DNA of 56,967 nucleotides from an uncultured Candidatus Saccharibacteria bacterium (GTDB lineage: Bacteria > Patescibacteriota > Minisyncoccia > Minisyncoccales > CAYZYK01). The DNA lies in assembly GCA_964507665.1 (NCBI GenBank), contig CAZDPT010000004.1, forward strand, positions 1 through 56,967, given 5' to 3'. The notes beneath the pieces were generated by a model. That model saw nothing but the letters and a program-made list of their open reading frames with translations, made no database searches and was not told where the DNA came from. Position numbers and translations under genes: made by a program. Below are positions 45,358 through 56,719 of this stretch, piece by piece (position 1 is the stretch's first letter; the number at the start of each line of letters is the position of its first letter).

Positions 45358-45530
45358 CAATTTAATTAAATTGTTATTTAAACTTAGGTCAAGAGAGAGT
45401 TAAAAGAAACTTGAGAGGCTTCTTAATTTTGTTAAACTTAAAATATCTTTAAAAACTATTAAAACCTGTGAGTCAGGTCCCCTTCTATCTTTGTGGATGG
45501 TAATATAGATTGATTTCTAATGGGGATTGG

Positions 45531-45737
45531 GCCTGATGAGGTGGCTTTTGCGGAAGTGAAAGCTCGGCTTCCTCCGTAATCAAAGGATAACCGAAGACAC
45601 CATGAAGGGTGGTAGAGTCGGTGAAAGTAGTTTTCAAGAGAAATAATAATCTTGGAAGAAACAGGGTGGTACCGCGGAGAACCCTCCGTCCCTGTAGCAT
45701 AACTTAGATTATGCTCCAGAGATGGGAGGTTTTTTTG
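45531..45737 (+). promoter_or_regulatory. T-box leader (tRNA-sensing riboswitch) with intrinsic terminator
   Basis: K-turn-like TGATGAG (45534-40), distal-loop 'AGTGAAAGC', T-box core 'AGGGTGGTACCGCGG...CGTCCCTG' (45663-45694), then terminator CCTCC..AGCATAA/TTATGCT..GGAGG + T7 (to 45736). Confidence 0.8.
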
Positions 45738-45804
45738 TTTGTTTCTTGCAATCAGGTTTTAACAGTACCTTAACAGAAAGATTCCAACAAGGAGAGAAAA
45801 GAAA

Positions 45805-45990
45805 GTGACAAAAAAAAGAGAAGAAAGAGGTTTTAGTACTGAGATGTTAAGAGTGTGTCCCCGGTGTGGAAAAAAGCACCCTCTTTTTAATAGAGAAGGG
45901 GGACATAATTTTATTCCTTCTGTTAGAGGAGATGGAGAAATAGAGAGTATTTGTATTAAATGTAAAGTAAAACAAGAAAGCAGGAAATAA
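45805..45990 (+). CDS. 61-aa zinc-ribbon protein
   Basis: GTG start 8 nt after AAGGAGAG. CPRC...CIKC pairs. Followed by a strong terminator. Confidence 0.55.
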   Translation: MTKKREERGFSTEMLRVCPRCGKKHPLFNREGGHNFIPSVRGDGEIESICIKCKVKQESRK

Positions 45991-45994
45991 TAGT

Positions 45995-46020
45995 AAGCCC
46001 CGTTTTCGGGGCTTTTTGTT
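45995..46020 (+). terminator. rho-independent terminator
   Basis: AAGCCCCG-TTTT-CGGGGCTT followed by TTTGTT. Confidence 0.8.
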
Positions 46021-46058
46021 GACTTGAAAGGTGAAATAATATATCTTAAATAAAAACT

Positions 46059-47367: not shown

Positions 47368-47383
47368 TTTTTGGTAAAGAAAG

Positions 47384-47410
47384 GAGCGTTTTTGGAACGC
47401 TCTTTTTATT
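47384..47410 (+). terminator. rho-independent terminator
   Basis: GAGCGTT-TTTGG-AACGCTC plus a T-run. Lies inside the 5' extension of the track ORF 47371, supporting a later start for the next gene. Confidence 0.6.
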
Positions 47411-47436
47411 TTAAAAAAAGGCTATTTTCTGATAAA

Positions 47437-48201
47437 ATGAAATATATTATGAGTAAAAACATAGTTAAAGTTAAAAATGTAAAAATAGGAAAAGGTTTTT
47501 GTGTAATTGGAGGGCCTTGCGCTATAGAATCAGAAAAACAGTTGTTGAAAACAGCAAAAGCAATAAAAGGCAATATTGATATTTTAAGGGGTGGTGCTTT
47601 CAAGCCCCGAACTTCACCTGAGAGCTTTCAGGGGTTAGCTGAGAAGGGCTTGAGGATTTTAAAGAAAGTAAGTCAAAAATTAAATATTCCTACCGTAACT
47701 GAAGTTATGGATACAAGAGATGTCGAGTTGGTAAGTAAATATACAGATATACTGCAAATTGGAGCAAGGAATATGCAGAACTATCCTTTGTTGCGTGAAG
47801 TAGGGAAAAGTAAAAAACCTGTTTTATTGAAAAGACATTTTGGATCTAAAATAAAAGAGGTTCTTTCTGGGGCAGATTATATTTTAAAAGAAGGAAATGA
47901 GAAGATAGTTTTATGTGAAAGAGGAATAAGAACTTTTGAGGATTCTTTAAGGTTTACTTTAGATTTTGCTGGAGCTTTATTTCTTCAGCAAAACTCAAAA
48001 TTTCCTGTAATAATTGATCCCTCACATGCCACTGGCAGTCCTGATTTAATTGTACCTTTAGTTAAAGCAAGCAGAGCAGCAGGGTTGGATGGGGTAATGG
48101 TTGAAGTTCATATTGCTCCAAGAGAAGCTAAAAGTGATGCAGAACAACAATTAACCCCCGAGCAATTTAATAGTATTTTTAAAGGTCGAAATAATTTTTA
48201 A
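47437..48201 (+). CDS. 3-deoxy-7-phosphoheptulonate (DAHP) synthase, type I-beta, no regulatory domain
   Basis: 'GGPCAIES' and 'LRGGAFKPRTSPESFQGL' signatures. Start set at ATG 47437. Confidence 0.8.
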   Translation: MKYIMSKNIVKVKNVKIGKGFCVIGGPCAIESEKQLLKTAKAIKGNIDILRGGAFKPRTSPESFQGLAEKGLRILKKVSQKLNIPTVTEVMDTRDVELVSKYTDILQIGARNMQNYPLLREVGKSKKPVLLKRHFGSKIKEVLSGADYILKEGNEKIVLCERGIRTFEDSLRFTLDFAGALFLQQNSKFPVIIDPSHATGSPDLIVPLVKASRAAGLDGVMVEVHIAPREAKSDAEQQLTPEQFNSIFKGRNNF

Positions 48202-53697: not shown

Positions 53698-53884
53698 TAC
53701 TTCACCTCCTTTTTGTTAGGTTGACAAGGTTCAACACATTTATCTTATATCTTGATAATAAGTTCAGTCAAGAACCTGGTTACTGCCTTGCCAAACTTGA
53801 CTACTGAGGTTTGACATTATTGAATCTAAACATTAAGATTAAGTTGCTCTTTGCTCTTTGTCAGTTTGTAAGGAAGAGGAAGAA

Positions 53885-54013
53885 ATGAAAGACTTTAACA
53901 AAACAGAGATGATTGTTAGGGGCTTGTTTCTTTTGGCTGTCCTCGCAGGATTTTTCTGGGGCTTGTGGGAATGGGTCACGAACTTTCCACCCCCCGGTGT
54001 TTTTGGTTCTTAA
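53885..54013 (+). CDS. possible 42-aa membrane peptide
   Basis: ATG preceded by AAGGAAGAGGAAGAA. Sequence 'MKDFNKTEMIVRGLFLLAVLAGFFWGLWEWV...'. Not in the track because it is under 60 aa. Confidence 0.3.
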   Translation: MKDFNKTEMIVRGLFLLAVLAGFFWGLWEWVTNFPPPGVFGS

Positions 54014-54031
54014 GATAAGAGGGGAGAGAAG

Positions 54032-54670
54032 ATGTACAAGACAGAGGAGGAGTGGATGGATTGTTTTCGGGCAATGGGCGCGCTCTGGATTCACGATGGT
54101 AATCCAGAGAAACTTCATGCCTTGCTTACTTCAGGTAATCATTCAGATGGATATTTCAATGGCAGCTTTATAATACAGAACCCTTTTGCTTTACAGCAGG
54201 TGTGTTCAGATCTTGTTGAAAGGTACAGAGAGGAAATTAATTTAGTATCAACTCAGGGAGTCATAACAGTTGTTGGTTCTGCTATGGGCGCTGTTACCAT
54301 AGCCTATGAGATGGCTCGCCAATTGGGATATTATACTGCTTTTACAGAACCTACTCCCGATAAAGAACGAATGATATTGAAACGTTTTGATATCGAAGAT
54401 AATGAAATTGTTCTGGTAGTGGAGGATGTAATAACAACAGGAGGTACCACTCTGAAAACCATTAGTTCTTTAGAGAAAGTGGGTGCTCAAATCTTGCCAG
54501 TAATTCCAGTTATTTTCAATCGTTCAGGCAAAGAGAAACTTGATGGTAGAGAAATCATTGCTTTGATTGATCAGCCTTTGTCTGTTTGGACTCCCGAGGA
54601 TTGTCCTCTTTGTGAGAAAGGTTCAGAACCAGTTCGACCAAAGGCAAATTGGCAGGCTTTAACCGCTTAA
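54032..54670 (+). CDS. pyrE: orotate phosphoribosyltransferase-like PRTase
   Basis: PRPP motif 'VLVVEDVITTGGTT'. Adjacent to pyrF. Confidence 0.7.
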   Translation: MYKTEEEWMDCFRAMGALWIHDGNPEKLHALLTSGNHSDGYFNGSFIIQNPFALQQVCSDLVERYREEINLVSTQGVITVVGSAMGAVTIAYEMARQLGYYTAFTEPTPDKERMILKRFDIEDNEIVLVVEDVITTGGTTLKTISSLEKVGAQILPVIPVIFNRSGKEKLDGREIIALIDQPLSVWTPEDCPLCEKGSEPVRPKANWQALTA

Positions 54671-54701
54671 TGTTGAAGAAACCAGAGAGAGGAGGCGGAA
54701 G

Positions 54702-55436
54702 ATGCAGGAGATGCAGGAGCAAGAATGGATCAAACCCGTAATTTTAGCTTTAGATGGAATGGATCCACATACTGCTATTCATACTGCAGACATTCTCCAA
54801 GATGTTATTGGGGGTGTAAAAGTCAATGATCTTCTTGATCTCCGTGGTATAAGTATTATCCGGACTCTTAAAAGAATAAAACTTATGGTAATGGCAGACC
54901 CTAAGATAAAAGACATTCCAAGAACTATCACAAGGAGAGTTAATCATTATGTTGATGCTGGAGCGGACTTTGTGACAGTAATGGCTGATAATTCCAGGGA
55001 TTCTTTAGAAGCAGCAGTAGAAGCTACAGAAGGTTCAGATACGAGAGTTGTAGCTGTTACTGTTCTTACTTCTATCGGTGAAGAAGAATGCTCCAAGATT
55101 TATGGAATTGATCCAGTAAATGGTGTTTATAGGTTTGCTAGAAAAGCAGTTCAAACAGGAATATCTGCTGTTGTCTGTTCTCCTCAGGAATTGGAAATAT
55201 TCAGTGATCCTTGTCTGAGAGGACTCGTTAAAATTACTCCGGGAATTCGTCTGGCTGATCAAGATAAAGAGGATCAGAAACGAGTGACAACTCCTAATCA
55301 AGCAATAGAGGCAGGCGCTAATCTTCTGGTAATCGGTAGCGCTATTCTTAAAGCAGGAGATAGAAGCACAGGAGCAAGAAAAGAAGCTGCAAGGAAGATT
55401 TTACAGCAAATTGAAGAAGCTAGAAAAAAGAGATGA
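54702..55436 (+). CDS. pyrF: orotidine 5'-phosphate decarboxylase
   Basis: 'ILALDG', 'GGVKVN', 'MADPKIKDIPRT' (DxKxxD-type) and 'LLVIGSAI' motifs. Confidence 0.8.
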   Translation: MQEMQEQEWIKPVILALDGMDPHTAIHTADILQDVIGGVKVNDLLDLRGISIIRTLKRIKLMVMADPKIKDIPRTITRRVNHYVDAGADFVTVMADNSRDSLEAAVEATEGSDTRVVAVTVLTSIGEEECSKIYGIDPVNGVYRFARKAVQTGISAVVCSPQELEIFSDPCLRGLVKITPGIRLADQDKEDQKRVTTPNQAIEAGANLLVIGSAILKAGDRSTGARKEAARKILQQIEEARKKR

Positions 55437-55456
55437 TTTCTAGAAGTTGAATCTTT

Positions 55457-55528
55457 AGGCAGGAGTTATCAGGGTGTTTTCCCTGGAGGAGGTGATGACA
55501 CCTTGCTCTGATTCCTGCCTCTTTTTTA
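55457..55528 (+). terminator. long composite terminator hairpin
   Basis: AGGCAGGA(gtt)ATCAG ... CTGATTCCTGCCT followed by CTTTTTTATT. Confidence 0.6.
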
Positions 55529-55529
55529 T

Positions 55530-55557
55530 TTGACCTTGAGAGGTTTTTGTGTAAAAT
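55530..55557 (+). promoter_or_regulatory. sigma70-like promoter TTGACC-16-TAAAAT
   Basis: Lies about 300 nt upstream of the dapB start. Confidence 0.4.
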
Positions 55558-55865
55558 AAAAATATCTTTGTTCTTTTTAATTTAATAAGAGGAGGAAGAA
55601 TGAGATAGAAGTAAAGAAGGTGTTTCCTGGAGATGTTGGTCTTGTCTACTTTCTAAGTGAGACAACATTCGGAGAAATAAGGACAAATGGATCGAAGCAA
55701 TGACAGACCTCGAGGGAATGTTTACATAAACGGTGGTCCGATGATAGGTTTTCATCCAGCTCACAATACTGGAAGGAGAACCTTTCCAAGACATAGAGTT
55801 CGGGCCCCTCAAAAAAGACATTCCTCAGGCCCCAAACGAATGAAAGCAAAGGAAGGAGAAGTAAG

Positions 55866-56672
55866 ATGGAGATAGCAAGAGTGATGATTGCGGGATTGCC
55901 AGGCAACATGGCAACTTTAGTTGCCTCTCAGGTAGCTCAAGCTGAGGATATAGAACTTCTTCAAATAGGTCTTGCTGAAAGAGAAGGGGATATAGAGGTA
56001 GAAGGCATTTCTGTAGGTTATGTTCCTCTGGATCAGCACGAAGAGGAAATCGGGAGATTTCCTCCCGATATCATAGTTGATTTTACTGGAGGGGAAGCAG
56101 TTAATCGAAACGCTGAAATGTATTGTAGAACAGAAACTCCCTTTGTGATGGGAACTACTGGGGGAGATAGAGAAGCACTTCAAGCAGTCGTAGAAAAATC
56201 AAACATCTCAGCTGTGATTGCTCCTAATATGGCAGCTCAAATAGTTGCTCTCCAGGCAATGCTGGAGTTTGGAGCAGAAAATTTCCCTGGAGTTTTTGAG
56301 GGTTATACTTTAGAGGTGGTGGAGAGTCACCAATCCTATAAAGAATCAACAAGCGGCACAGCAAAAGCTATGGTTGGTTACTTCAATACTTTGGGAGCTC
56401 CGTTCTCAAAAGGGGATATTGTTAAGATAAGAGACCCAGCCAGTCAAGAGAAACTCTTGGGTGTGCCCAAAGAACACCTGAACGGTCACGGTTGGCATAA
56501 ATACACCCTGAGATCTCCCCAAGGAGATGTTCTTTTTCAAATTGTACATAACGTAAACGGAAGAGATGTTTATGTTCGGGGAGTATTAGATGCTATTCGC
56601 TTTTTGTATCCTAGGAGAGAGGAACAAGGTAGAGTTTACAGTATGATTGATGTTCTCCGAGGTGGAGAATAA
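55866..56672 (+). CDS. dapB: 4-hydroxy-tetrahydrodipicolinate reductase (plant/chlamydia-type DapB)
   Basis: 'IAGLPGNMA', 'VMGTTGG', 'VVESHQSYKESTSGTAKAM', and the C-terminal 'GRDVYVRGVLDAIRFL' pattern. Confidence 0.75.
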   Translation: MEIARVMIAGLPGNMATLVASQVAQAEDIELLQIGLAEREGDIEVEGISVGYVPLDQHEEEIGRFPPDIIVDFTGGEAVNRNAEMYCRTETPFVMGTTGGDREALQAVVEKSNISAVIAPNMAAQIVALQAMLEFGAENFPGVFEGYTLEVVESHQSYKESTSGTAKAMVGYFNTLGAPFSKGDIVKIRDPASQEKLLGVPKEHLNGHGWHKYTLRSPQGDVLFQIVHNVNGRDVYVRGVLDAIRFLYPRREEQGRVYSMIDVLRGGE

Positions 56673-56691
56673 ATTTCTTTTTTCCTTTAAG

Positions 56692-56719
56692 GGGCGTCAT
56701 TTCTGGCGCCCATTTTTTA
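56692..56719 (+). terminator. rho-independent terminator
   Basis: GGGCGTCA-TTTC-TGGCGCCC followed by ATTTTTT. Confidence 0.7.

What the first reader, a model, noticed from the sequence alone, without database searches (positions are those of the whole stretch)
45531..46020. T-box riboswitch controlling a 61-aa zinc-ribbon ORF instead of an aminoacyl-tRNA synthetase or amino-acid gene
The leader has these elements:
- a K-turn-like TGATGAG;
- a Stem I distal loop AGTGAAAGC;
- a specifier-loop candidate 'CCGAAGACACC' (45591-45601);
- the canonical T-box core AGGGTGGTACCGCGG..CGTCCCTG;
- a terminator with a T7 run.

The only gene before the next strong terminator (45995-46020) is a GTG-initiated CxxC...CxxC mini-protein with a good SD.

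The specifier is ambiguous. GAA-GAC-A would read Asp, while AAG-A would read Lys. The T-box bulge reads UGGU, implying a tRNA with discriminator A73. That fits Lys better than Asp or Glu. The downstream gene is non-canonical, and T-box leaders are mainly known from Firmicutes and a few other phyla, so both points merit a second look.
Basis: partly seen in the sequence, partly recalled or inferred. Interest (0 to 1): 0.65.

Follow-up and report, generated by a model that had tools for sequence, protein, structure and literature searches.

The report
Tryptophan T-box switch driving zinc-ribbon mini-protein
This is a real tRNA-sensing RNA switch (T-box) in an ultra-small (CPR/Patescibacteria-type) bacterium, but it reads tryptophan tRNA, not lysine or aspartate tRNA, has a trimmed architecture that standard annotation misses, and switches on a conserved 61-residue zinc-ribbon protein of unknown role, an arrangement repeated in every relative examined.

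Summary
The T-box is real. Rfam RF00230 matches 45459-45696 at 52.8 bits, E 9.6e-9 for the whole window, which is below the curated cut-off of 93.

Stem I lies at 45465-45541, mostly upstream of the given start. The specifier is UGG (45528-45530, Trp), followed by G, in a 3' side bulge between two covarying helices. UGGU pairs with G73 of tRNA-Trp by a G·U wobble, which is typical of Trp T-boxes.

The ORF belongs to a rare family of about 60-residue zinc ribbons. All seven family loci with DNA, this window included, carry the same T-box upstream. A motif scan found 63 more leaders of this class, nearly all in CPR genomes. They drive trpS, trpB, TrpB2, TrpD-like genes and, in about 40% of loci, Cys-rich mini-proteins.

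The architecture is Class IV-like (side-bulge specifier, no elbow platform) but acts through a terminator.

The protein's function is unknown. The nearest analogy is anti-TRAP of Bacillus, in regulatory logic only, not by homology.

I rate it a new variant of a known kind, of moderate to high interest.

The parts
45411..45438 (+). Promoter-like site TTGAGA-16 nt-TAAACT with a TG extension. It would start the transcript about 10-20 nt before the T-box.
   Evidence: Consensus scan. The region is conserved in the closest relative, L062. This is inferred, with no transcript data.
45465..45541 (+). Stem I. It comprises the C-stem CC/GG (45465-66 with 45540-41) and the K-turn strands UGUGAG (45467-72) and UGA (45537-39). 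The lower helix is UCAGG/CCUGA (45473-77 with 45532-36). The upper helix is UCCCC/GGGGA (45478-82 with 45522-26), capped by a 39-nt non-conserved loop.
   Evidence: Rfam alignment. The same helix-bulge-helix parse holds in 61 of 69 leaders, with 50 distinct lower-helix sequences. In the pair count 98.7% of cells are paired and 14 pairs show double changes, matched by 0 of 500 shuffles.
45527..45531 (+). Specifier side bulge UUGGG. The specifier is UGG (45528-45530, Trp), followed by the purine G45531.
   Evidence: UGG is the only codon, apart from the overlapping GGG, that is shared by the bulge variants UUGGG, CUGGG, UGGG, AUAUGGG and GAAUGGA across the class. Cargo genes are trpS, trpB and TrpB2. 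tRNA-Trp(CCA) genes lie nearby.
45543..45564 (+). Stem II hairpin (GGCUUUU / GAAAGCU) with the conserved loop GCNNNAGU.
   Evidence: Five of seven pairs show compensatory changes. It aligns to Stem II of RF00230.
45565..45587 (+). Stem IIA/B pseudoknot. IIA is CGG/CCG (45565-67 with 45574-76). IIB is loop UCCU (45570-73) paired with AGGA (45584-87). It includes the F-box-like CCGUAA (45574-79).
   Evidence: Rfam alignment. The IIB pairing covaries in L003 (C-G to U-A) and in L006 (GCUGU/ACAGC).
45590..45622 (+). Extra hairpin (ACCGA...UCGGU) between the pseudoknot and Stem III.
   Evidence: Folds at -12 kcal/mol. The closing helix changes on both sides in relatives: CCGA/UCGG, CUGA/UUAG, GUCAA/UUGGC, ACUG/CAGU (read).
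45631..45658 (+). Stem III.
   Evidence: Rfam alignment and fold.
45661..45695 (+). Antiterminator carrying the T-box bulge UGGUACC (45667-45673). UGGU pairs with the 3' GCCA end of uncharged tRNA-Trp, with a U·G73 wobble.
45679..45736 (+). Intrinsic terminator. The folded hairpin spans 45679-45732 and its core is CCCUCC...GGGAGG. It runs into the U7 tract at 45730-45736 and shares its 5' strand with the antiterminator.
   Evidence: Folds at -25 kcal/mol, z -5.2. An equivalent hairpin plus T-run is present in 50 of 65 leaders of the class.
45805..45990 (+). Gene for the 61-aa zinc-ribbon mini-protein (GTG start, AGGAG at 45790-94). The zinc ligands are C18, C21, C50 and C53, and it carries the family motif G-HNF-x-P.
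   Evidence: phmmer finds 47 relatives among 1.8 billion representatives. Invariant columns are C18, C21, N35, C50 and C53. The model has pLDDT 82 and shows a four-stranded zinc ribbon plus a C-terminal helix. There is no Pfam family.
45995..46019 (+). Terminator closing the mini-protein transcription unit.
   Evidence: -15.7 kcal/mol, z -4.7. The closest relative L062 also has a terminator at this point.

Best explanation
Window 45459-45736 is the leader of a T-box riboswitch that terminates transcription and senses tRNA-Trp.

**How the switch is built**
- Stem I is of intermediate length and has no tRNA-elbow platform.
- The codon UGG, followed by G, sits in a 3' side bulge between two helices and pairs with the CCA anticodon of tRNA-Trp.
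- A K-turn, a short Stem II and the IIA/B pseudoknot sit alongside. By analogy with solved ileS T-boxes they clamp the codon-anticodon duplex.

**How it switches**
- When tRNA-Trp is uncharged, its free 3' end GCCA pairs with UGGU of the T-box bulge (U·G73 wobble). This stabilises the antiterminator (45661-45695).
- When tRNA-Trp is charged, the terminator (45679-45732 plus U7) forms and transcription stops.

**What is switched on**
- Readthrough gives a short, essentially monocistronic mRNA for a 61-residue zinc-ribbon protein (45805-45990), closed by its own terminator. The protein is therefore made when Trp-tRNA charging falls.
- Its molecular role is not known. My best guess is a trans-acting starvation effector that binds a protein or RNA partner linked to Trp or aromatic amino-acid supply. 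That is the logic of Bacillus anti-TRAP without homology to it.

**Shown versus inferred**
- Shown here: the RNA anatomy, the covariation, the Trp assignment, and the conserved link between T-box and mini-protein.
- Inferred: tRNA binding, antitermination, zinc binding and the effector role.
For: **The T-box itself**
- RF00230 matches at E 9.6e-9 over the window.
- The antiterminator and terminator are mutually exclusive and both fold well.

**Stem I and Stem II**
- A helix-bulge-helix Stem I with (U/C)UGGG or UGGG is found in 61 of 69 related leaders, with 50 different lower-helix sequences.
- On a 21-sequence alignment, 98.7% of cells are paired and 14 pairs show compensatory changes. None of 500 shuffles reach this, and slid controls give 41-58% paired.

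**Trp assignment**
- The same class sits before trpS (TIGR00233, 264-268 bits), trpB (TIGR00263, 552-569 bits) and TrpB2 (NF009057, 370-725 bits).
- Six neighbouring tRNA-Trp(CCA) genes all have G73.
- U opposite G73 is the known peculiarity of Trp T-boxes (PMC7778990).

**The mini-protein**
- It is a real family: 47 hits with an invariant Cys4 and Asn, and a confident zinc-ribbon model.
- All seven family loci with DNA, this window included, carry the T-box upstream (35.9-70.1 bits for the six others).
- Thirteen further T-box-linked members turned up in the scan for the T-box motif.
- A terminator follows the gene here and in about half of the relatives.
Against: - There are no transcript data. 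Only three DNA metagenome runs hold the stretch, so neither antitermination nor the 3' end of the mRNA has been observed.
- The Rfam score is below the curated threshold.
- The closest relative, L062, has UGA instead of UGG in the bulge. This is unexplained.
- Transcriptional T-boxes are thought to need the Stem I elbow platform for fast tRNA capture, and this one lacks it.
- The protein's role is a guess. Fold search gives only insignificant ribosomal zinc-ribbon matches (E about 0.2), and there is no hit to anti-TRAP.
- This member lacks the C-terminal Trp that 26 of 37 relatives have.
Confidence: 0.85

Rival explanations
1. This is a Lys- or Asp-specific T-box whose specifier lies in CCGAAGACACC (45591-45601), and UGGU in the bulge demands a tRNA with A73.
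For: GAC and AAG triplets occur in that stretch. U in the bulge would pair with A73 by Watson-Crick pairing.
Against: - That stretch is 3' of Stem II and the pseudoknot, inside a separate covarying hairpin. It is not conserved in sequence among relatives.
- The true Stem I lies upstream and carries a conserved UGG.
- The cargo genes of the class are Trp genes.
- tRNA-Trp with G73 coexists with UGGU leaders, as is known for Trp T-boxes.
Confidence: 0.02
2. The mini-protein is incidental. The physiologically relevant targets are the downstream genes (acylphosphatase, NUDIX, EamA, DAHP synthase at 47371-48201), reached by readthrough of the 45995-46014 terminator.
For: - DAHP synthase, the first step of aromatic amino-acid synthesis, lies 1.4 kb downstream on the same strand.
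- In relatives the mini-gene sits directly before TrpB2 (L007, L008) or tyrS, without a detected terminator in between.
Against: - The terminator after the ORF is strong (8 bp, 6 G-C, U-run; -15.7 kcal/mol).
- A promoter-like site (TTGACT-17-TATCTT, 46019-46047) precedes the next gene.
- The downstream genes differ from locus to locus, while the T-box plus mini-protein pair is constant.
- Three unrelated genes separate the ORF from DAHP synthase.
Confidence: 0.1
3. The ORF acts mainly in cis, as a translated leader in the manner of a Trp-codon attenuation peptide, or the unit is a decaying relic. Either way there is no functional protein product.
For: - Many mini-ORFs behind CPR Trp T-boxes carry Trp codons near their C-terminus and precede trpB2.
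- The protein evolves fast: 42% identity to L062 against 73-76% for the neighbouring genes.
Against: - This ORF has no Trp codon at all and nothing downstream to regulate before its own terminator.
- The four Cys, N35, G32, F36, P38 and K54 are invariant or nearly invariant over 37 diverse members. That is selection on a folded protein.
- The structure model is confident.
- The leader RNA is intact in every element.
Confidence: 0.05

Closest known systems
Class IV T-box riboswitches (for example Actinomyces odontolyticus ileS), as classified in PMC10482949
   Same: - Stem I is of intermediate length and has no interdigitated T-loop (elbow) platform.
[quoted passage not shown]
- A K-turn, Stem II and the IIA/B pseudoknot are all present.
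   Different: [quoted passage not shown]
- This one has an intrinsic terminator (50 of 65 class members do), reads Trp, and comes from CPR/Patescibacteria genomes.
Canonical transcriptional (Class I) Trp T-boxes, Rfam RF00230, such as the Firmicute trpS and trp-operon leaders
   Same: - The T-box sequence and the antiterminator/terminator switch.
- The UGG specifier followed by a purine.
- UGGU opposite G73 of tRNA-Trp.
   Different: - There is no distal Stem I platform and no S-turn specifier loop.
- There is an extra hairpin before Stem III.
- The score is 52.8 bits against a gathering score of 93, so routine annotation misses it.
Bacillus subtilis rtpA (yczA) leader and anti-TRAP (PMC11255114)
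   Same: A tRNA-Trp T-box switches on a zinc-binding protein of about 55-60 residues instead of an enzyme. The output of the tRNA-charging sensor is a small trans-acting protein.
   Different: - No sequence or fold similarity was detected. The family profile does not hit anti-TRAP chains in the PDB at E up to 10, and Foldseek does not list them among its 50 best matches.
- No CxxCxGxG motif.

Membership tests
T-box riboswitch (RF00230) | Conserved T-box sequence forming an antiterminator with a 7-nt bulge that begins UGGN | tested here: met
   AGGGUGGUACCGCGGAG..CUCCGUCCCU at 45661-45695, with the bulge UGGUACC.
T-box riboswitch (RF00230) | A competing terminator (or sequestrator) that shares a strand with the antiterminator | tested here: met
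   Hairpin 45679-45732, -25 kcal/mol, z -5.2, followed by U7.
T-box riboswitch (RF00230) | A specifier trinucleotide in Stem I that matches the anticodon of the tRNA for the regulated pathway, followed by a purine | tested here: met
   UGG-G at 45528-45531. It is conserved in 61 of 69 leaders. Class cargo genes are trpS, trpB and TrpB2. tRNA-Trp(CCA) genes lie nearby.
T-box riboswitch (RF00230) | K-turn at the base of Stem I, plus Stem II and the IIA/B pseudoknot | tested here: met
   Rfam alignment. The C-stem, Stem II and IIB show compensatory changes (L006).
T-box riboswitch (RF00230) | Score at or above Rfam's gathering threshold (93 bits) | tested here: not met
   52.8 bits, although E is 9.6e-9. 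Relatives score 35.9-70.1 bits. The shortfall comes from the missing distal Stem I.
T-box riboswitch (RF00230) | Binds uncharged cognate tRNA and antiterminates | not testable with these tools
   Needs in vitro transcription or binding assays.
Class I T-box | Long Stem I with a distal interdigitated T-loop platform that stacks on the tRNA elbow | tested here: not met
   - The model's 47 distal positions are skipped in the Rfam alignment.
- Most relatives have only a 3-7 nt apical loop on the upper helix.
- The window's 39-nt loop is largely absent from its closest relative.
Class IV T-box (PMC10482949) | [quoted passage not shown] | tested here: met
   The definition was read.
Class IV T-box (PMC10482949) | Acts on translation initiation (anti-sequestrator); stated as 'mostly' for Classes III and IV | tested here: not met
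   An intrinsic terminator with U7 lies here, and the SD is 55 nt further downstream. 50 of 65 relatives have the same arrangement.
Anti-TRAP (RtpA) | Sequence or fold homology to the anti-TRAP / DnaJ-type zinc domain | tested here: not met
   There is no anti-TRAP chain among the PDB profile hits at E up to 10, nor among the 50 best Foldseek matches.
Anti-TRAP (RtpA) | A small zinc protein under tRNA-Trp T-box control | tested here: met
   61 aa with Cys4, behind a Trp T-box. Zinc binding itself was not measured.
Anti-TRAP (RtpA) | A TRAP (MtrB) partner present in the genome | not tested
Unnamed CPR zinc-ribbon mini-protein family (alignment A1) | CPxCGK...G-HNF-x-P...CxxCK pattern in a protein of about 50-75 residues | tested here: met
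   The window protein has C18, C21, G32, N35, F36, P38, C50, C53 and K54. Its profile E-value is 1.3e-16.

The most novel reading that the evidence does not exclude
CPR/Patescibacteria carry their own widespread clade of tRNA-Trp T-boxes. These work as transcription attenuators without the Stem I elbow platform, using a Class IV-like side-bulge specifier.

The commonest first cargo of these T-boxes is a set of fast-evolving zinc-ribbon mini-proteins. The window's unit (promoter, T-box, mini-gene, terminator) would then be a self-contained sensor-effector module. Its only output is a trans-acting protein that re-tunes Trp or aromatic amino-acid supply or translation during Trp starvation. That would be an independent invention of the anti-TRAP logic in organisms thought to be amino-acid scavengers.
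Probability: 0.35. Interest if true: 0.75.

Novelty: new variant of a known kind. Interest (0 to 1): 0.62.

Why it matters
1. T-box riboswitches are textbook elements of Firmicutes and Actinobacteria. I found no paper in the searchable library that links them to CPR, Patescibacteria, Parcubacteria or Saccharibacteria. All members seen here fall below Rfam's threshold, so genome annotation misses a whole regulon in these reduced genomes.

2. The architecture combines features held to belong to different classes: a platform-less, side-bulge Stem I together with an intrinsic terminator. It therefore tests the idea that co-transcriptional T-boxes need the elbow contact to capture tRNA quickly.

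3. The regulated product is a conserved zinc-ribbon mini-protein with no known function. It is repeatedly placed under Trp-starvation control, and sits next to trpB2, tyrS, DAHP synthase and prephenate enzymes in relatives. This gives a concrete, testable entry point into how ultra-small symbionts respond to amino-acid limitation.

Tried and rejected
**Searches that gave nothing**
- An Rfam scan at gathering thresholds found nothing. Only the E-value mode showed the T-box.
- No tRNA gene lies in the window.
- The word-index protein search found only the query itself. The exhaustive phmmer search was needed.
- Sequencing runs: only three DNA metagenomes (microbial mat) hold the stretch and there is no RNA.
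As a result I could not read the window genome's own tRNA-Trp, its other T-boxes, or whether it has TRAP, TrpB or TrpS.

**Function leads for the protein**
- Pfam and NCBIfam give only sub-threshold generic zinc-ribbon hits.
- The family profile against the PDB gives nothing significant. LysW (E 0.39) was considered as a C-terminal-tail carrier-protein analogy and rejected, because the match covers only the CxxC knuckle and this protein has no acidic or Trp tail.
- The best Foldseek matches are eL24-type ribosomal zinc ribbons at E about 0.2, which is not significant.
- Net charge across the family is only mildly basic (median pI 8.5). It does not decide between an RNA and a protein partner.

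**RNA readings rejected**
- The second GGGUGGUA at 45606-45613 was considered as a tandem or decoy T-box. It forms the inner stem of a hairpin whose sequence is not conserved in relatives.
- Other reading frames of the bulge were rejected: AUU (Ile), UUG (Leu) and GGG (Gly). Only UGG and GGG survive all bulge variants. GGG fails in the GAAUGGA members and does not fit the Trp cargo genes.
Full report
**1. The observation**

The default Rfam scan of the whole window reports nothing. With E-value thresholds the T-box model RF00230 matches 45459-45696 over its full length at 52.8 bits. E is 1.4e-10 in the local search and 9.6e-9 for the whole window, where it is the only hit below 0.01. The match is therefore far beyond chance, yet well under the curated cut-off of 93 bits.

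It is formally met, but for a structural reason: the model's distal Stem I positions have no counterpart here.

**2. Anatomy of the RNA**

Coordinates read:

| Element | Position |
|---|---|
| C-stem of Stem I | CC 45465-66 with GG 45540-41 |
| K-turn strands | UGUGAG 45467-72 and UGA 45537-39 |
| Lower helix | UCAGG 45473-77 with CCUGA 45532-36 |
| Upper helix | UCCCC 45478-82 with GGGGA 45522-26 |
| 3' side bulge | UUGGG 45527-31 |
| Stem II | 45543-64 |
| IIA/B pseudoknot | 45565-87 (loop UCCU pairs with AGGA; F-box-like CCGUAA) |
| Extra hairpin | 45590-45622 |
| Stem III | 45631-58 |
| Antiterminator | 45661-95, bulge UGGUACC |
| Terminator | hairpin 45679-45732, running into U7 at 45730-36 |

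The antiterminator folds at -17 kcal/mol. The terminator folds at -25 kcal/mol (z -5.2) and reuses the 3' strand of the antiterminator.

- 'K-turn TGATGAG' is only the 3' half of the K-turn.
- The 'Stem I distal loop AGTGAAAGC' is Stem II.
- The 'specifier CCGAAGACACC' lies in the extra hairpin.

A promoter-like TTGAGA-16-TAAACT site sits at 45411-38.

**3. Is the ORF a gene, and is the link to the T-box conserved?**

A word-index search found only the query. An exhaustive phmmer search of 1.8 billion representatives found 47 hits, mostly proteins of 50-75 residues. The alignment of 37 of them has invariant C18, C21, N35, C50 and C53, and near-invariant G32, F36, P38 and K54. The consensus is CPxCGKxLPxF...G-HNFCP...CxxCK.

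A profile search gave named members from Candidatus Staskawiczbacteria and Nealsonbacteria, which are CPR/Patescibacteria lineages.

I fetched every member for which contigs could be read. All six distinct loci with DNA (L002, L003, L004/L005, L006, L007, L008/L010) carry an RF00230 match directly upstream of the mini-gene, at 35.9-70.1 bits. With the window that makes seven of seven. Two further contigs without DNA on file show 389- and 483-nt gene-free gaps ahead of the gene or gene pair.

The pairing of a T-box with this mini-protein is thus a conserved unit, not a local accident.

**4. Which tRNA?**

In all these leaders the 3' side of Stem I reads (G/A)U-UGG-G, G-UGG-G or AUA-UGG-G just before the lower helix.

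I scanned 185,579 species genomes for the class-specific pseudoknot motif CGGCTTCCTCCGTAATCANAGGAT. This gave 63 further loci, nearly all labelled Parcubacteria, Staskawicz-, Falkow-, Doudna-, Kerfeld-, Uhr- or Vogelbacteria, 'Patescibacteria group', or uncultured TPA bins.

A simple parser found the same helix-bulge-helix Stem I in 61 of 69 leaders. The bulge is UUGGG, CUGGG or UGGG, and the lower helices have 50 different sequences. The few exceptions mostly have a classical GAAUGGA specifier loop.

On a MAFFT alignment of 21 K-turn-type leaders, my structure gives:
- 98.7% of cells paired;
- 14 of 26 pairs with compensatory double changes;
- 0 of 500 shuffles reaching the observed values;
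- 41-58% paired when the partners are slid.

The genes behind these leaders are:
- trpS (TIGR00233, 264-268 bits);
- trpB (TIGR00263, 552-569 bits);
- TrpB2-like enzymes (NF009057, up to 725 bits);
- TrpD-like paralogues.

Six loci also contain a tRNA-Trp(CCA) gene within a few kilobases, and all six have G73. Four of those genomes have UGGU and two have UGGC in the T-box bulge, so U·G73 wobble is used. This is exactly the peculiarity recorded for Trp T-boxes in TBDB, where 46% have U opposite G73 (PMC7778990).

The specifier is therefore UGG (Trp).

**5. Class**

[quoted passage not shown] It describes Classes III and IV as mostly translational, and the examples named are ileS leaders from the genera Nocardia and Actinomyces.

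The window's leader has that Stem I. Its 39-nt apical loop is not conserved even in the closest relative, L062, whose leader is 84% identical overall. Most relatives have apical loops of 3-7 nt.

Yet the leader ends in an intrinsic terminator, as do 50 of 65 class members by a strict hairpin-plus-T-run test. It also has an extra covarying hairpin before Stem III.

I therefore file it as a T-box (defining features met, Rfam threshold not met). It resembles Class IV in Stem I but acts transcriptionally, is Trp-specific, and comes from CPR genomes.

Literature searches combining T-box with candidate phyla radiation, Patescibacteria, Parcubacteria or Saccharibacteria returned no paper. That is a limit of the library, not proof of absence.

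**6. What is regulated here**

The mini-gene is followed by an 8-bp, G+C-rich terminator. A promoter-like site precedes the next gene, an acylphosphatase. NUDIX, an EamA half-transporter, DAHP synthase and a PEBP protein follow.

The closest relative, L062, has the same layout: DUF5667 protein, T-box, mini-gene, terminator, acylphosphatase, NUDIX.

In other relatives the cassette sits in three kinds of context:
- before TrpB2 (L007, L008);
- in a conserved murC / T-box / mini-gene / tyrS / aspS arrangement (seven Staskawiczbacteria-type loci; the aaRS is TyrRS, TIGR00234, 324-375 bits);
- alone, with its own terminator.

DAHP synthase, prephenate dehydratase, prephenate dehydrogenase and TyrRS recur nearby.

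The constant part is T-box plus mini-protein, so I take the mini-protein to be the regulated product here. Partial readthrough to downstream genes remains a minor rival.

**7. The protein**

AlphaFold with the family alignment gives a confident zinc ribbon (pLDDT 82) of four strands plus a C-terminal helix. The function searches gave the following:
- Foldseek against the PDB gives only eL24-type ribosomal zinc ribbons at E about 0.2.
- The family profile against PDB sequences gives nothing significant. It does not find anti-TRAP, and LysW appears only at E 0.39.
- Pfam gives sub-threshold generic zinc-ribbon hits.
- The family is mildly basic, with median pI 8.5; the window's member has pI 9.7.
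- 26 of 37 members have a Trp, usually just after the last CxxCK. The window's member has none.
- The protein is 42% identical to L062's, against 73-76% for the neighbouring acylphosphatase and NUDIX genes and 84% for the leader RNA. It evolves fast outside its invariant core.

The only known precedent for a small zinc protein under a tRNA-Trp T-box is Bacillus anti-TRAP (PMC11255114). The resemblance is one of circuit logic, not of descent.

My working model is a trans-acting effector made when tRNA-Trp charging drops. I put the odds of this at roughly one in three. Its partner is unknown.

**8. A wider pattern**

Across 68 leaders, 24 of 62 small ORFs lying just after the T-box carry two or more Cys pairs, against 5 of 325 small ORFs elsewhere in the same loci. 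Two of the 24 look spurious, and two of the 5 are further members of this family.

Besides this family there are unrelated Cys-rich minis, several with GW or GWG motifs near the C-terminus and often preceding trpB2.

Notes from other agents of this scan describe the same theme in other genomes. They are not independent evidence. One of them led me to the Class IV definition, which I then checked in the paper.

**9. Limits**

The window genome's own tRNA-Trp, its other T-boxes and its Trp genes could not be examined.
- Only DNA metagenome runs hold the region, so there is no transcript evidence.
- tRNA binding, antitermination, zinc binding and the protein's function are all inferred.

**10. 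Verdict**

This is a new variant of a known kind, combining a Class IV-like Stem I with a terminator in CPR genomes and carrying an uncharacterised, conserved mini-protein as cargo. Interest 0.62.

Noticed in passing
L062:2230-2240 (aligned to window 45522-45536): The closest relative of this locus has GGGGG-UGAG-CCCGA where the window has GGGGA-UUGGG-CCUGA. Its specifier therefore reads UGA, not UGG. Its neighbouring genes are open under table 11, so UGA does not look like a sense codon there. It could be a mutation, an assembly error, or tolerated mispairing.
   Followed up: partly
L012, L014, L016, L017, L018/L024, L025, L036, L039, L056 (first ORF after each T-box): Other, unrelated Cys-rich mini-proteins of 50-80 aa follow CPR Trp T-boxes, often just before trpB2. 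Many carry GW or GWG motifs near the C-terminus. 24 of 62 post-T-box small ORFs have two or more Cys pairs, against 5 of 325 elsewhere in the same loci.
   Followed up: partly
L040:3948-4682, L026:3293-4090 and similar ORFs in L030, L032, L033, L035, L038, L063: The same Trp T-box class drives two protein families with no NCBIfam hit. One is about 250 aa with the motif 'ELSACQLEDR'. The other is about 266 aa with 'CPDYPNDG'. It also drives TrpD-like paralogues that score below the trpD cut-off (L046, L050).
   Followed up: partly
L011, L020, L035, L042, L050, L057: A tRNA-Trp(CCA) gene with G73 lies within a few kilobases of the Trp T-box in six of 63 loci.
   Followed up: yes
for example L023, L048, L061, L071 (Stem I region): A second sub-architecture of the class has no K-turn. 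A 7-9 bp lower helix is followed by an additional hairpin before Stem II, which looks like a three-way junction.
   Followed up: no
window 45805-45990 compared with L062:2500-2694: The mini-protein is only 42% identical between the two closest loci. The leader RNA is 84% identical and the flanking acylphosphatase and NUDIX proteins are 73-76% identical. The protein evolves fast outside its invariant zinc-ribbon core.
   Followed up: partly
P0003, P0006, P0034; L055 about 1.8 kb downstream of its T-box: Tandem two-domain versions of the zinc ribbon exist (119-159 aa). One family member sits further downstream of a T-box, behind another gene.
   Followed up: no
L002:2044-2271; also the 75-aa ORF on the ERZ1305449 contig: In the Staskawiczbacteria locus a conserved 68-75-aa ORF with no Cys and no family hit lies between the T-box and the zinc-ribbon gene. 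This suggests a two-mini-protein operon.
   Followed up: no
window about 53800-56700: The predicted proteins (PRTase, OMP decarboxylase, DapB) look compositionally different and richer in G+C than the rest of the AT-rich window. The base composition was not measured here.
   Followed up: no
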